Origin: Promethearchaeota archaeon
Lineage (GTDB): Archaea; Asgardarchaeota; Lokiarchaeia; Sigyniarchaeales; SOKP01
Direction: 5' to 3'
NCBI GenBank assembly: GCA_016839585.1
Contig: JAEOTZ010000064.1
Coordinates: 1 to 13,683 of the forward strand
Length of the DNA: 13,683 bases
Positions 2,683 through 12,067 of the stretch are shown one piece after another. Position numbers and translations under genes: made by a program. Under the pieces are notes generated by a model that worked only from the letters and a program-made list of their open reading frames with translations, was not told where the DNA came from and searched no databases. Within the stretch, counting starts at the first letter, position 1; each line of letters starts with the position of its first letter.

Positions 2683-2907
2683 ATGGCAAACATAACCCTT
2701 TCAATCCCAGAAGATTTAAAAAAAGAAATGGAAGAATTCCCTGAAATTAATTGGTCAGAAGTTGCTCGAACATCTATTAAACAAAAAATAGCCCATCTTA
2801 AATTTTTAAAAGGATTTCGGATGGATAGTGAAATTACTCCTGAAGATGCCCTAGATCTAGGAAAAGAAGTAAGTAAATTGTTAGCTGACCGTTATATGAG
2901 GGAATAA
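2683..2907 (+). CDS. vapB: Ribbon-helix-helix/CopG-like antitoxin (VapB-type)
   Basis: MANITLSIPEDLKKEMEEFPEINWSEVAR is a typical archaeal RHH antitoxin N-terminus; ends 2 bp before a PIN-domain gene. Confidence 0.8.
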   Translation: MANITLSIPEDLKKEMEEFPEINWSEVARTSIKQKIAHLKFLKGFRMDSEITPEDALDLGKEVSKLLADRYMRE

Positions 2908-2909
2908 TA

Positions 2910-3353
2910 TTGAAATTAGTAATTGATGCTAATATTATATTTGCAGCCTTAATAAAGGAAGGCCTAACTGCTGAGTTAATTATCAATGATGAGCTTCAAT
3001 TATTTGCCCCCGAATTTTTATTAGAAGAAATCTCCAAATATCAAGACCAAATTTTTGAAAAAACACACAGATCAAAAGAAGAATTTGAGATTTTTGTACA
3101 AATACTAAATGAATATATTACTTTTATCCCTCAGAAAAATATTAAACCCTTCCTTGAAAAAGCAAATTTATTTTCACCTGATCCTAAAGATTCTGTTTAT
3201 TTAGCACTAGCATTAGCACTTAAATCGGCAGTTTGGTCAAATGATAAAAAGTTAAAAGAAGAACAAGTTCAAGTAAAAGTGCTATCCACAGAAGATCTAA
3301 TAAATAAAACTAAAATACTTAAAAAGAATAAGAAAAAAATAAAAAGAAATTGA
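2910..3353 (+). CDS. vapC: PIN-domain toxin (VapC-type RNase)
   Basis: LVIDANII, EEI, DPKDSVYLALA and WSNDKKL acidic PIN motifs; TTG start. Confidence 0.9.
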   Translation: MKLVIDANIIFAALIKEGLTAELIINDELQLFAPEFLLEEISKYQDQIFEKTHRSKEEFEIFVQILNEYITFIPQKNIKPFLEKANLFSPDPKDSVYLALALALKSAVWSNDKKLKEEQVQVKVLSTEDLINKTKILKKNKKKIKRN

Positions 3354-3355
3354 AT

Positions 3356-5374
3356 CTATTTTAATTCTTCTCTTATTTTTTCGTAGAAATCAAGCGACTC
3401 AGGATTTCTCAGTGCACCTCTATTAGCTACAGCCATTCTGTGAATAATCTTAGTAACTGCTATTTCAACCTTTTTGTTGCTGAAAGTATAGGGTATGCCA
3501 TCTGAAGGTGTTTGTAATATTAGTTTAGGAACATGTCTAGGTGAAGTTTTCTCTCTTAATGTTTTTTTAATTTTTTCTTTTAATTCATTAGTTAATTTAT
3601 ATCCCTCATTCAATAAAACAAACATTATTATTCTAATATCTCCCTGCCATTTCTGCCCAATAACTAGTGAATCAGCTATCTCGGGAAGTTGTTCAATTAC
3701 ATTATAGATTTCAGCTGTTCCTATTCGTACACCACTTGGTTTAAGAACAGCATCAGATCTACCCCAGAATGTAACTCCTCCAGTATCGCTGTGAATAACG
3801 ATATAATCACCATGCCTCCATACATTTTTGCCAATTTCCTTAAAATGATCAAAGTAAGCAGCTTTATATTTAGTCATATTGTCATCATCACCCCAGAAAT
3901 ATACAGGCATAGATGGTGATGGGGCTTCGCAGACCAGCTCAGCTTGTTCATCTTTTACTGGTTCTGCAATATCATTATAGGATTCAACTTTCATTGCGAG
4001 TGCTCTACCTTGTAATTCACCAGAATAAACAGGTAAGATAGGAATTGCACCTGCAAAACATCCATTGATATCAGTACCGCCACTTATTGAGTTAAAGTAT
4101 AAATCTTTTTTAATTTCACGATAAACATATTCAAATCCTTCAGGAGATAAAGTAGATGCAGTTTGTGAGATTTCTCTAAGTGAACTTAAATCGTATTTCT
4201 TGGCAGGCTTAAGATCAAGACCCATGAGATAATGAATATAAGCAGCGCTAGTTCCAAATATGGAAATTTTATGTTTTTCTATCAATTCAAAAAATCTAAG
4301 AGGATCAGGATAAAGGGGATTGCCATCATATAAAAAGATGGTTGCACCTACTGCTAATGCACTAATCAACCAATTCCACATTTTGGCTGGTATAAGGATA
4401 TCTTATACCATCATCCATGAGGGAGCAGTGATATAGTTCAGTACATCGCTCCTTTTAACATCAGTAGAAAGGATAAGCTCCTTTAGATGGTTTATAAGAA
4501 CTCCTCCAGCGCTCTGTACCATGCTTTTTGGCTTTCCTGTCGTTCCCGAGGAGAACATTACATATATAGGATGGTCGAATGGTAATTGCTCAAATTCAAG
4601 TGGAGGATTCTCATCCTTCGAGATAAAGTCCTCCCAATTGACGGCTTTAGGGATTCCTGATACATCACATTTTCCGTCTGAAATATAAGATACCACCACT
4701 ACTTTTTCTATGGAAGGGAGGGCATCAACGACCTCTTTTGCATTATCTCGAATATCAAATATTTTATCTCGATAAAAATATCCATCTACAGTAAAGAGCA
4801 CTTTTGGCTCAATTTGACCAAATCTATCAATTACTGCACTTGGTTGGAGCTCTGCTCCGCAAGATGCCCAAATTGCACCAATAGTCGCTCCCGCAAGCAT
4901 TGCTACGGGCGTCTCAATTAAGTTAGGAATATATGAAACAACTCTATCTCCAACTTTAACCCCTGCTTCCTTAAGAGATTTAGCTAAACGAGCTACGGTT
5001 TTATTTAATTCTGCATAAGTCATTGTTTTGGATACTTTAGTCTCACCTTGAAAGTCGAAAGCTAATTGATCGTCTTTATACTTCAGAAGGTTCTCCGCAA
5101 AATTGAGAAGACTTCCTTCAAACCATTTTGCCCCAGGAAAATGATTGAGATCATCAATAACTCTATAATATTTCTTGGAACAAATTATACCAGAAAACTC
5201 CCACATAGCTTCCCAAAAATCTGGGATCTCTTCAACTGACCATTTATATAACTCTTTCCCACCTTGAATATTTATTCCGTATTTATCATTAACAAAGTTA
5301 ATAAACCGTGTAATCTCTGTATTTTTTATCCATTCTTCTAAGGGTTCCCAGAGTTTTTTTCTATCATCGCTCAT
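3356..5374 (-). CDS. Acetoacetate-CoA ligase (acetoacetyl-CoA synthetase), two exons: complement(join(3356..4381,4412..5374)), 662 aa
   Basis: LNFAENLL, FSSGTTGKPK, SISGGTD, WRHGD and GRSDAVLKPSGVRIGTAEIY motifs. The two track ORFs are in the same frame, and removing 30 nt rebuilds the family motif SWMMWNW. Confidence 0.92.
4382..4411 (-). other. 30-nt BHB micro-intron in the acetoacetate-CoA ligase mRNA
   Basis: Sense strand: CCUCA UGGA UG^A UGGUAUAAG AUAUC CUUAUACCA GCCA AA^A UGUGG. Perfect 9-bp stem, 3 of 4 central-helix pairs, two 3-nt bulges; contains an in-frame UAA. Confidence 0.85.
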
Positions 5375-5637: not shown

Positions 5638-7431
5638 TTATTTAAAATGCATTTTTTTTCTCTCTAAGCTATCTCTATAATTTTCAAGCATTTCTCGCAT
5701 TAAATCCATCCCTAGATAAATATTGTAACCAACACCACCCCATTCACTATCAGTACGCCAGATTTTGTATGTTATTTTAAAATACCTTCTAACTTGGTTT
5801 ATAAAATTAATGCTTCCTGATGTTATTACAGTTGAGCCCACTTTTCCATCACCATCATAGTACCCTAAAATAAAAGCTAAATATAATTCTCTTGAAGCTA
5901 ATTTTGGCAATTCTATAGATTTAGATTTTTTCTTTCCAACAATGAAACCATGTTTAATTAAATTTTTAGCAAACTCATCACTAACAAACCGAATTCTCAC
6001 ATAATCAGTTATTTCTCCATCTCTTCTAATTTCAGTTTCCTTATGCTCAAGATTAAAACCTATAGCTCTGGCAAATTTATCTAATAAATCTTTCTCATCA
6101 TCTTTATGCAATTCAACTCCAAATCTTAAATATTTGTCATGCTTGGAAAGCCAACCTTCTGCGAATAACCATCCTAACCAATAAGCTTTTTCTTTAGTAT
6201 CAATATATTCAAAATAGTCAATTTTTAAGTTTGGATGCCAGCTGTAGATACCATGAAGTGACTTTTTTAGATTATTAGAATTTTTATATTTATTCAATAG
6301 ATTAATGATTTCTCTTGGAACTCTAGCTAAATTTTTTTTGATATTAGATTCATATTCTTCAATTGTTTCTATTGAAATTAAATAATTTGAATTTTTCTTT
6401 ATTTGGTTCCTCTTTTTTCTAATATGAGAATTTGACTGTCCCAAAATGAGACTTAGTTGCTCATCTGTTAATTGACCTCGCCATAAATTAGTTTCTGAAA
6501 CATTTTTAGCAAGAACACCTTTTAAATCATTTAAAAAGCTTAATGTACTATATTCATTTGTGATTACCGTTAAAAACTCATTAGTTTTTAAAGCTTCTAT
6601 ATCAGATCTAGTAAATTTTTTGGTAAGGTTTTCCTTCCAGAATTCAAGATAAGCGGAGAACCTGTCAAAAGCGGATATCCTTTTATTAGATGAAAGTCCA
6701 AGTAAGCATTTACCTGTGTCTAAATTTAAAATCCTATCATAAAAATCTTTCACTTGGGATAATGGGATATTTTGTTTCTCTCCTATTTTTAATAATTCCA
6801 TTTCTACATTTGAAGAAAATTCGAGCCATTTAATTAACATATTCCTCAGTTCTGGAGAGAGATTTAAAATTTTTTGTTTATTAACAAACACCTCAGAATG
6901 CGCCCGGAGGTGCTTAAGTAGCCTTGTATATTGTAAAGTAATTTCATCAATACCTCTCTTTATCGCATTAAATACTTCTTCTTTTTTTCTCTCAATTTTT
7001 ATACTTAAATCATCCTTGAGAATCTTCAGCTGTTTCTTTGTAATTTGTTTTAAATACGATTTTGAAAGAGAATCCATGTAAGATGAAATGATAGAAGCAC
7101 CCCTTCCAATTGTAATACAATAGATCCAACTGTTAATAAACGTATTTAATTCTTGGGGGTATTTCTCCTTAATTTGGCTCAATAACACCTTAGGAGGGAG
7201 CCCCGCTTTATCAAATAAACATGCTAATGCACCATCAACAATTTCCCCTATTCGTTCATCAATATACACTAAGGGAAGGTGGTGTTGTTTGCATTTAGGG
7301 TATTTTCCAAACCCAAAAAATCCAAGTTTTAAAGGTTTTACTCTTTTCATCATATCACAACCTAATTGAGGACAAATAGCAATCATATCCTCATTTGTGG
7401 TTTTCCGAGATACTTTAGTATATTCTACCAT
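5638..7431 (-). CDS. Protein with an N-terminal Cys/His Zn-binding motif and a C-terminal two-motif LAGLIDADG homing-endonuclease-like domain
   Basis: AYWLGWLFAEG and AFILGYYDGDG motifs about 100 aa apart, followed by ITSGSINFINQV; N-terminal CPQLGC...CKQH. Confidence 0.8.
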   Translation of the reverse strand: MVEYTKVSRKTTNEDMIAICPQLGCDMMKRVKPLKLGFFGFGKYPKCKQHHLPLVYIDERIGEIVDGALACLFDKAGLPPKVLLSQIKEKYPQELNTFINSWIYCITIGRGASIISSYMDSLSKSYLKQITKKQLKILKDDLSIKIERKKEEVFNAIKRGIDEITLQYTRLLKHLRAHSEVFVNKQKILNLSPELRNMLIKWLEFSSNVEMELLKIGEKQNIPLSQVKDFYDRILNLDTGKCLLGLSSNKRISAFDRFSAYLEFWKENLTKKFTRSDIEALKTNEFLTVITNEYSTLSFLNDLKGVLAKNVSETNLWRGQLTDEQLSLILGQSNSHIRKKRNQIKKNSNYLISIETIEEYESNIKKNLARVPREIINLLNKYKNSNNLKKSLHGIYSWHPNLKIDYFEYIDTKEKAYWLGWLFAEGWLSKHDKYLRFGVELHKDDEKDLLDKFARAIGFNLEHKETEIRRDGEITDYVRIRFVSDEFAKNLIKHGFIVGKKKSKSIELPKLASRELYLAFILGYYDGDGKVGSTVITSGSINFINQVRRYFKITYKIWRTDSEWGGVGYNIYLGMDLMREMLENYRDSLERKKMHFK

Positions 7432-10665: not shown

Positions 10666-10811
10666 TATGTAAATAAATTATAAAATTCGATATCTTTTAA
10701 TTTTCAATTTTATGATTTAATTATCATGATTTTTGTAATTTTTTTCTTAATTCAAAAAATTTTTTATTCGTAAAATACAAATTTAATATAAAAACAAAAA
10801 GAGGAAAATAT

Positions 10812-12067
10812 ATGACCAAAATATTTGAAGAAATCCGCATTCTTGATTGCTCACAGAATTAAAGCATATCGCTTTTTAATGAGTAAAATTCATAAGCGGA
10901 CCTTGGGCGGGTATATTTTTTGCAGATCAAGGGGCTGAAGTAATTAAGGTAGAAATTTGAATGCATATCGTATTCATACTATAACCTCCGCCATTTGGAG
11001 AAAGTTTTCGATACTTTATTTTATATGATAAAACCATGTTTCCCTTATTTTCTATATTAAATAGAGGAAAAAAGTCAATTTCTTTAGATTTAAGAAAAGA
11101 GGAAGCTCAAGAAGTTTTCAAGAAATTAGTGGAAAGATCAGATGTAGTAATAGAAAATTTTGTAAGAGGTACGATGGAAAAGTGGGGTATTGGGTATGAT
11201 GTATTAAAAAACATTAATTCAAAATTAATATATGCCAAAATTTCTGGATATGGTAATGAGGGTTTAGAAGAATACACCAACAAAACAGCTTTCGATATTA
11301 TTATTCAAGCAGAGGCAGGAATCTTAAATGCTCTAGGATTTAAAGAAGGACCTCCGAGACTTCCTATTGCAGATTATACAGCAGGTCATATCGCGGCTAT
11401 TGGGATTAGCCAAGCACTTTATTATAGAGAAAAAACAGGTATTGGGCAATTTATTGATATTTCTATGCATGATATCATGTTTGCTATCAATGTTAGAGCT
11501 CAAGCAAAAGAATTTATACCTTTAGCATCCAAAATTGATGTAGGAGGTAAATTTTTACCAGTTTATAATCAATACAAAACAAAAGATGGTAAAAAAATTG
11601 TATTTACAACTCTAACTGAAAACCAATGGATAAGACTATGCGAAAATGTATTGAAGAAACCAGATTTACTAAAAGATAATAGATTTGATAATATAATTAA
11701 GCGTTTTTCTTATGTAGATGAATTAGATAAGATTATAGAAGAATGGACAACAACTGTAACAAGAGAAGAAGCTATAAAACAACTTAATGAATTCAGAATT
11801 CCATGTGGAAAAACCCTAACCATTAATGAAGTTCATAATCATCCAAACCTAAGGGCAAGGGGGATGTTATGTGATCAATTTGATTTTACAAAATGGGGTG
11901 TTGAAAAAGCAACAATTCCCAACCGATTAATCAATTTCTCCGAAACAAAAGGTTCTGTTAATGTTCCAGGTCCGGAATTTGGTGTTCATAATGAAGAGAT
12001 TTATTGTGGTTTATTAGGGTATAAAAAAGAAGATTTAAAGAGATGGAAGCGTGAGAAAATAATATAA
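10812..12067 (+). CDS. Family III (CaiB/BaiF) CoA-transferase, three exons: join(10812..10854,10887..10954,10985..12067), 397 aa
   Basis: Spliced N-terminus MTKIFEEIRILDCSQFISGPWAGIFFADQGAEVIKVEPPPFGE matches the family pattern. NRGKKSISLDL, DVVIENF and catalytic PIADY follow; GAGG RBS at 10801. Confidence 0.92.
10855..10886 (+). other. 32-nt BHB micro-intron 1 of the CoA-transferase gene
   Basis: UGAUU GCUC AC^A GAAUUAAAGC AUAUC GCUUUUUAAU GAGU AA^A AUUCA. Central helix GCUC/GAGU; excision corrects the frameshift and removes the stop. Confidence 0.8.
10955..10984 (+). other. 30-nt BHB micro-intron 2 of the CoA-transferase gene
   Basis: AG GUAG AA^A UUUGAAUGC AUAUC GUAUUCAUA CUAU AA^C CU. 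Central helix GUAG/CUAU; contains in-frame UGA and UAA; excision gives KVE|PPP. Confidence 0.85.

What the first reader, a model, noticed from the sequence alone, without database searches (positions are those of the whole stretch)
10947..10987. Second intron only 68 nt downstream: a multi-intron prokaryotic mRNA with a micro-exon
A 30-nt insert with two in-frame stops separates KVE from PPPFGE in the conserved GAEVIKVEP motif. Stem TTTGAATGC/GTATTCATA (one mismatch, one G-U pair), central helix GUAG/CUAU, bulges AAA and AAC. The gene would have exons of 43, 68 and 1083 coding nt and need two splicing events, both near the 5' end, which raises the question of how splicing outpaces coupled translation.
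Basis: partly seen in the sequence, partly recalled or inferred. Interest (0 to 1): 0.87.

Follow-up and report, generated by a model that had tools for sequence, protein, structure and literature searches.

The report
Two tRNA-type mini-introns in Asgard gene
A metabolic enzyme gene of an uncultured Asgard archaeon is broken by two inserts of about 30 bases, only 68 bases apart and shaped like tRNA introns, so its messenger RNA very probably has to be cut and rejoined twice; in the papers searched this was reported for only one archaeal coding sequence, and there with a single intron.

Summary
Confirmed. The 30-nt insert (10955-10984) is the second of two bulge-helix-bulge (BHB) inserts in a family III CoA-transferase gene of a Loki-type Asgard archaeon. 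Removing both at the standard cut sites gives a 397-aa enzyme; partial products stop at 16-38 aa. Among 48 orthologs, 25 carry insert 2 at the same base (30-31 nt): 10 have both inserts, 15 only insert 2, 2 only insert 1, 21 neither. The central helix pairs in 95% of cells, a silent exon change is compensated inside the intron in two genomes, and exon 3 is under purifying selection (dN/dS 0.07-0.16). An independent metagenome contig has an identical insert 2. The genome encodes a two-subunit EndA and RtcB. Splicing itself is not shown: no RNA run was listed. No race with translation is needed: ribosomes stop inside intron 1 until it is removed. Patchy presence partly reflects recombination. 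I found no published multi-intron EndA-type mRNA in the library searched. The scan has already noted such inserts on other DNA: this gene in relatives, and other Asgard genes with 2-3 inserts.

The parts
10800..10805 (+). Shine-Dalgarno-like AGAGGA upstream of the start
   Evidence: seen in sequence; function inferred
10812..10854 (+). exon 1 (43 nt), start ATG to the first base of Gln15
   Evidence: collinear with intronless orthologs
10855..10886 (+). intron 1, 32 nt, frame-shifting, TAA at 10860-62; central helix 10849-52 / 10881-84, bulges 10853-55 and 10885-87
   Evidence: 12 of 48 orthologs carry a 32-35-nt insert here, central helix 96% paired
10887..10954 (+). exon 2 (68-nt micro-exon), FISGPW...AEVIKVE
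   Evidence: PF02515 positions 12-33
10947..10948 (+). exon-exon helix, 5' side (pairs with 10986-87)
   Evidence: G-C in 16/16, A-U in 12/16
10949..10952 (+). central helix, exon strand GUAG
   Evidence: 96.9% paired in 16 sequences; compensatory A-U to G-C in 2
10953..10955 (+). 5' bulge AAA; predicted cut after 10954
   Evidence: only register 0 pairs the helix in all orthologs
10955..10984 (+). intron 2, 30 nt, two in-frame stops, hairpin 10956-10978 with 5-nt loop 10965-69
   Evidence: 25 of 48 orthologs, 30-31 nt; identical in metagenome contig L222
10979..10982 (+). central helix, intron strand CUAU
10983..10985 (+). 3' bulge AAC; predicted cut after 10984
10985..12067 (+). exon 3 (1083 nt incl. 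stop), rest of the CoA-transferase III with the catalytic Asp motif (IADY)
   Evidence: PF02515 E 3.7e-78; dN/dS 0.07-0.16; PDB matches of the intronless ortholog

Best explanation
Both inserts are tRNA-type mRNA introns. Each folds with its flanking exon bases into a BHB motif; the two-subunit splicing endonuclease EndA cuts after the second base of each bulge and RtcB joins the exons. Only the doubly spliced RNA encodes the 397-aa CoA-transferase. Each motif is local and self-contained, so the two events are independent and can occur in either order. Until intron 1 is removed, ribosomes stop at codon 17, about 85 nt before the second motif; after that they stop at codon 39 until intron 2 is removed. 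So translation is gated by splicing, not raced by it. The introns are most likely tolerated, near-neutral passengers, kept spliceable by selection and shuffled among species by recombination. Shown: inserts, geometry, covariation, selection on the protein, presence of the enzymes. Inferred: cleavage, ligation, order, neutrality.
For: Exact removal gives 391-397 aa in 25 of 27 insert-bearing orthologs; one exception is cut by a contig end, one has a 1-nt frameshift further on. Central helix paired in 95% of cells at register 0 against 3-65% when slid. Structure count on 16 sequences: 93.2% paired, 15 double-sided changes, 0/500 shuffles, slid controls 21-59%. Silent exon change GTA to GTG matched by CTAT to CCAT in two genomes on different branches. 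The Val/Ile codon ends in the base that pairs with the intron in 25/25 insert-2 genes; 15 of 23 genes without it end in T/C, which could not pair (kin not independent). All 25 inserts close the frame within 7 codons, 19 shift it. dN/dS 0.07-0.16. EndA alpha with Y/H/K triad and the loop lysine matching A. pernix K44 (PMC3241643), a second EndA paralogue, RtcB. cbf5 precedent (PMC2738675).
Against: No transcript evidence. The BHB 2 fold is not the predicted ground state (pair probability 0.11-0.29), RNAalifold prefers a different outer helix, and the exon helix is only 2 bp. 5 of 25 orthologs have a mismatch at the outer pair of the central helix. One both-intron ortholog (L022) has an extra frameshift (error or decay).
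Confidence: 0.88

Rival explanations
1. The inserts are inactivating insertions; intron-bearing copies are pseudogenes, or are translated from the internal ATG at 11036 as a 343-aa product.
For: Two stops and a frameshift; an ATG at 11036; intronless relatives exist; L022 has a further frameshift.
Against: dN/dS 0.07-0.16 also between intron-bearing copies; no other lesion in 25 of 27; inserts span several genera; ATG at codon 55 in only 6 of 32 orthologs; the N-terminal exons stay conserved and carry PF02515 positions 12-33.
Confidence: 0.03
2. Ribosomes hop over the inserts (T4 gene 60 or yeast mitochondrial byps type); the RNA is not cut.
For: Short hairpin inserts with a stop two codons after the junction.
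Against: No matching take-off and landing codon in any of 25 orthologs (GAA/GAG before; TAA, AAA, CAT, TAG and others at the end). Covariation links exon and intron at the spacing of the endonuclease motif.
Confidence: 0.03
3. The BHB is cut by EndA but rarely rejoined, or is removed only under some conditions: a regulatory switch or decay signal for acyl-CoA metabolism genes, perhaps read by a factor that binds the 5-nt loop.
For: Marginal stability of BHB 2; three inserts in this window share loop AUAUC; inserts in two neighbouring CoA-metabolism genes; a 5' UTR BHB intron affects expression in Haloferax (PMC7714728).
Against: 21 of 48 orthologs have no insert and 17 have one; loop length is mostly kept but its sequence varies among orthologs. 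It still requires splicing to make the enzyme, so it is an add-on to the main reading.
Confidence: 0.12
4. The inserts are tiny DNA elements excised precisely at the DNA level (IS200/IS605-like), or assembly artefacts.
For: Hairpin, no target duplication, precise presence/absence; the closest ortholog by exon 3 lacks both.
Against: Identical insert 2 in an independent assembly; no second copy in the genome with a covariance model; the intronless close ortholog is a recombinant with a foreign 5' end, not a clean excision; geometry fits the RNA endonuclease.
Confidence: 0.02

Closest known systems
cbf5 pre-mRNA BHB intron of Desulfurococcales and Sulfolobales (Watanabe 2002; Yokobori 2009, PMC2738675)
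   Same: Short BHB intron in a coding sequence, cut after the second bulge base by a hetero-oligomeric EndA; lineage-specific absence; variable interior.
   Different: One intron in one gene that itself acts on RNA, with cDNA proof. Here two introns 68 nt apart in a metabolic gene, all four presence states within one family, a third insert in a neighbouring gene, no cDNA.
Multi-intron tRNA genes of Asgard archaea and Thermoproteales (PMC11291895; bioRxiv 10.64898/2026.10.13.758758)
   Same: Several short BHB introns per transcript, repeated gains, two-subunit EndA in most Asgard genomes; splicing not yet shown in an Asgard cell.
   Different: Those are tRNAs; the preprint's text has no occurrence of 'mRNA'. 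Here the exons are codons, so removal must be exact and silent sites are constrained.
HVO_1309 5' UTR BHB intron of Haloferax volcanii (PMC7714728)
   Same: mRNA processed by EndA at a BHB motif.
   Different: Lies in the untranslated leader, single, does not break a reading frame.
Ire1/RtcB splicing of XBP1/HAC1 mRNA in eukaryotes (own knowledge)
   Same: Protein-catalysed removal of a short frame-controlling intron, joined by a tRNA ligase.
   Different: Different nuclease and two separate stem-loops; one regulated intron.
Phage and bacterial genes with several group I/II introns (own knowledge, e.g. phage Twort nrdE)
   Same: Prokaryotic mRNA needing more than one splicing event.
   Different: Self-splicing ribozymes of hundreds of bases; these are 30-32 nt with no Rfam match.

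Membership tests
Archaeal BHB (EndA-type) intron | 4-bp central helix of exon 5' strand and intron 3' strand | tested here: met
   GUAG/CUAU; 95% of cells paired in 25 orthologs, slid controls 3-65%; compensatory change
Archaeal BHB (EndA-type) intron | Two 3-nt bulges on opposite strands; cuts after the second base restore the mature sequence | tested here: met
   Cuts at 10954/55 and 10984/85 give a sequence collinear with 23 orthologs lacking the insert
Archaeal BHB (EndA-type) intron | Flanking intron helix and exon helix | tested here: met
   Intron stem with covariation; exon helix minimal (1-2 bp; G-C 16/16)
Archaeal BHB (EndA-type) intron | Motif is the dominant fold | tested here: inconclusive
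   Pair probability 0.11-0.29 for intron 2, 0.95 for intron 1; energy models penalise bulges
Archaeal BHB (EndA-type) intron | EndA and RtcB encoded in the genome | tested here: met
   Two PF01974 genes, one with Y/H/K triad and loop Lys; one RtcB
Archaeal BHB (EndA-type) intron | Excision and exon ligation in RNA | not testable with these tools
   No RNA run available to lay
Group I/II self-splicing intron | Ribozyme core of hundreds of bases | tested here: not met
   30 nt; no Rfam match up to E 1
Translational bypass element (gene 60 / byps) | Matching take-off and landing codons | tested here: not met
   0 of 25 orthologs
Mobile DNA hairpin element (MITE, IS200/IS605-derived) | Related copies elsewhere in the genome | tested here: not met
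   Covariance model finds only this site at significance; the model includes exon flanks, so it is not sensitive to copies at other sites
CoA-transferase family III (CaiB/BaiF) | PF02515 over the full length with catalytic Asp | tested here: met
   substrate unknown

The most novel reading that the evidence does not exclude
Loki-type Asgard archaea run a general, protein-catalysed, multi-intron mRNA splicing layer with exons as short as 68 nt, and use it to control expression: uniform ~30-nt introns with a 5-nt loop are recognised by a dedicated factor and spliced conditionally, a spliceosome-free exon-intron gene architecture in close prokaryotic relatives of eukaryotes.
Probability: 0.2. Interest if true: 0.92.

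Novelty: new variant of a known kind. Interest (0 to 1): 0.78.

Why it matters
Published archaeal mRNA splicing, in the papers I could search, rests on one coding intron (cbf5) and one leader intron. A metabolic gene with two such introns, present in all four combinations across 48 relatives, shows that exon-intron structure can build up in archaeal protein genes without a spliceosome, in the lineage nearest to eukaryotes. It gives a natural series to study intron gain, loss and spread, and a 200-nt substrate for a direct test. It also means Asgard gene catalogues are mis-called: standard ORF calling starts this protein at residue 55.

Tried and rejected
RNA test: no RNA holder listed, so no reads were laid; not evidence either way. 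De novo genome scan for BHB inserts from ORF joining and folding had no power: real and decoy counts equal, so I give no genome-wide intron count. Comparison with 1.6 Mb of a congener (722 genes) found 4 convincing hairpin inserts absent there, but missed intron 1, so it is insensitive near gene starts and blind to shared introns. Covariance model found no second copy. Rfam: nothing. Sigma-70 promoter scan is not meaningful for an archaeon. ARAGORN mis-places introns in this genome's tRNAs, so I did not compare tRNA intron loops. Counting gains and losses on the gene tree rejected: states are no more clustered than shuffled labels and the gene is mosaic. Exon skipping as a productive isoform rejected: out of frame, 28 aa. 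'Invariant AUAUC loop' rejected: holds in this genome only. PDB comparison of the second EndA paralogue failed on a frame slip and was not repeated.

Full report
Observation. The start codon is at 10812. The frame reads MTKIFEEIRILDCSQ and stops at 10860-62; a second piece ending in GAEVIKVE stops at 10958-60; the rest runs from 10985 to 12067. The insert described is 10955-10984, with two in-frame stops, central helix 10949-52/10979-82, bulges 10953-55 and 10983-85, a 9-position stem with one mismatch and one G-U, and a 5-nt loop. Exons of 43, 68 and 1083 nt join to 397 aa; unspliced or singly spliced forms give 16, 38 and 16 aa, and skipping exon 2 gives 28 aa. Only 3 of 200,000 shuffles of the insert gave as good a motif. 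Exon 2 matches PF02515 positions 12-33 and exon 3 positions 35-366.

Organism and enzymes. The nearest named orthologs are mostly labelled Promethearchaeota (Loki-type Asgard) MAGs; the genome is 3.45 Mb, 29% G+C, 99% complete. It has two EndA paralogues and one RtcB. One EndA is closest to the A. pernix alpha subunit and keeps the positions of Y125, H133, K164 and the loop lysine K44, which that enzyme needs for activity and which is tied to broad specificity (PMC3241643). The other lacks the catalytic His in my reading of its sequence, as expected of a beta subunit.

Survey of relatives. I collected 48 distinct orthologs at 70% or more identity: 21 have neither insert, 15 only insert 2, 10 both, 2 only insert 1. 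Eight more distant homologs (about 50-60%) have none. Insert 2 is always at the same base and 30-31 nt; insert 1 is 32-35 nt. Removal gives 391-397 aa in 25 of 27; one is cut by a contig end and one has a single-base frameshift further on. All 25 copies of insert 2 close the frame within 7 codons and 19 shift it, so read-through is excluded. An independent metagenome contig (Ga0114921) has both inserts, insert 2 identical, with 76 differences over 1191 coding bases, which rules out an assembly artefact.

Selection on the RNA shape. The central helix pairs in 95% (insert 2) and 96% (insert 1) of cells at the BHB register, against at most 65% and 54% when slid. On 16 aligned copies the whole motif is 93.2% paired with 15 double-sided changes; no shuffle of 500 reached this and slid controls gave 21-59% (relatedness inflates the shuffle test). 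In two genomes on different branches the silent exon change GTA to GTG is matched by CTAT to CCAT in the intron. The third base of that codon pairs with the intron in 25 of 25 genes; 15 of 23 genes without insert 2 have T or C there. Exon 3 has dN/dS 0.07-0.16 in all pairs tested, with or without introns. The internal ATG at 11036 is present in only 6 of 32 orthologs, so it is no conserved restart. No ortholog has matching take-off and landing codons, so ribosome hopping is unsupported. Against: the BHB 2 helix has a predicted probability of only 0.11-0.29 and competes with another pairing.

How it most likely works. EndA cuts each motif after the second bulge base and RtcB joins the exons (established chemistry for cbf5 and tRNA introns; inferred here). 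The two motifs do not overlap, and each occurs alone in other species, so they are independent. The 15 orthologs with insert 2 alone show that shielding is not required. The real hazard is losing the 68-nt exon if both motifs are cut before ligation; that product is out of frame, so there is no useful alternative isoform.

History. Presence is scattered on the exon-3 tree (13 changes for insert 2, 8 for insert 1), but this cannot be read as gains and losses. The intronless ortholog L034 sits between two double-intron genes by exon 3, yet differs from this gene at 23 of 96 bases in exons 1-2 against 7% in exon 3, and its leader resembles another lineage: it is a recombinant. Several double-intron genes that are distant in exon 3 have nearly the same micro-exon (4-5 differences of 96 against 15-19%). 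So the two-intron block probably moves between species as a unit; constraint on silent sites is the alternative. Here intron 1 resembles that of L002 and intron 2 those of L007/L018, which hints at separate histories. How the introns first arose is not resolved.

Context. A homology comparison blind to the finding recovered insert 2, a third 30-nt insert in this window (4382-4411, minus strand, acetoacetate-CoA ligase-like gene, mid-gene, in 5 of 24 orthologs) and two more elsewhere. All have 5-nt loops; the sequence AUAUC is shared by the three in this window but varies among orthologs. The scan's notes list many such inserts in this genome and other Asgard genomes, including this gene in relatives and genes with 2-3 inserts; these are unchecked leads except where I saw the same loci.

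Comparison with what is known. It works like the cbf5 intron and meets every sequence-level feature of a BHB intron; excision is untested. A 2020 study names cbf5 as the only earlier mRNA case and adds a leader intron (PMC7714728). Asgard tRNAs with multiple introns are described (PMC11291895; bioRxiv 10.64898/2026.10.13.758758), without mRNA cases. Seven searches found no report of a coding sequence with two EndA-type introns; the library lacks most subscription journals. Multi-intron prokaryotic mRNAs with self-splicing introns are known (own knowledge).

Verdict. Observation confirmed, interpretation supported; two real mRNA introns spliced by EndA/RtcB, probability about 0.88. New variant of a known kind. 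Interest 0.78.

Noticed in passing
window 4382-4411 (-): Third 30-nt BHB-like insert with a perfect 9-bp stem and the same AUAUC loop, splitting SWM/MWNW of an acetoacetate-CoA ligase-like gene; removal gives 662 aa; present in 5 of 24 congeners, with a compensatory stem change; central helix has one A-G.
   Followed up: partly
G000 C61:45771-45810 (-): 40-nt frame-shifting BHB-like insert with loop AAUUC, absent from the congener's ortholog; gene not identified here, probably the dnaG insert of note e1-5589150.
   Followed up: no
G000 C86:59770-59799 (-): 30-nt hairpin insert with BHB-like geometry that is in frame and has no stop: it could be spliced or read through as 10 extra residues.
   Followed up: no
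G000 C2:58875-58904 (+): 30-nt candidate with a strong hairpin (-10.7 kcal/mol) and 4-bp helix from the de novo scan; that scan had no power, so only a lead.
   Followed up: no
L022 (G030), about 80 codons into exon 3: One base missing in an A run relative to its sister gene; sequencing error or recent decay of a both-intron copy.
   Followed up: partly
L034 (JAHLWP010000039.1), 5' end of the gene: Chimeric gene: leader and exons 1-2 from another lineage, exon 3 close to this genome's; the gene is mosaic further on too.
   Followed up: partly
window 5638-7431 (-): 597-aa ORF with a weak C-terminal LAGLIDADG-like domain (E 1.4e-4) and an unknown N-terminal part, directly upstream of the intron-bearing ligase gene; the 217-aa neighbour has no Pfam match.
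   Followed up: no
window 2683-3353 (+): Small ORF pair; the second begins with a PIN-like motif, likely a vapBC toxin-antitoxin pair abutting the ligase 3' end.
   Followed up: no
G000 tRNA genes: ARAGORN finds only 18 tRNAs, many with odd inserts, suggesting multi-intron tRNAs that it mis-calls.
   Followed up: no
L032 (G000 C39): The second EndA paralogue lies next to a PIN-domain ATPase-like ORF; the first lies next to a MEMO-like and an FBPase-like ORF (names from sequence look, not searched).
   Followed up: no
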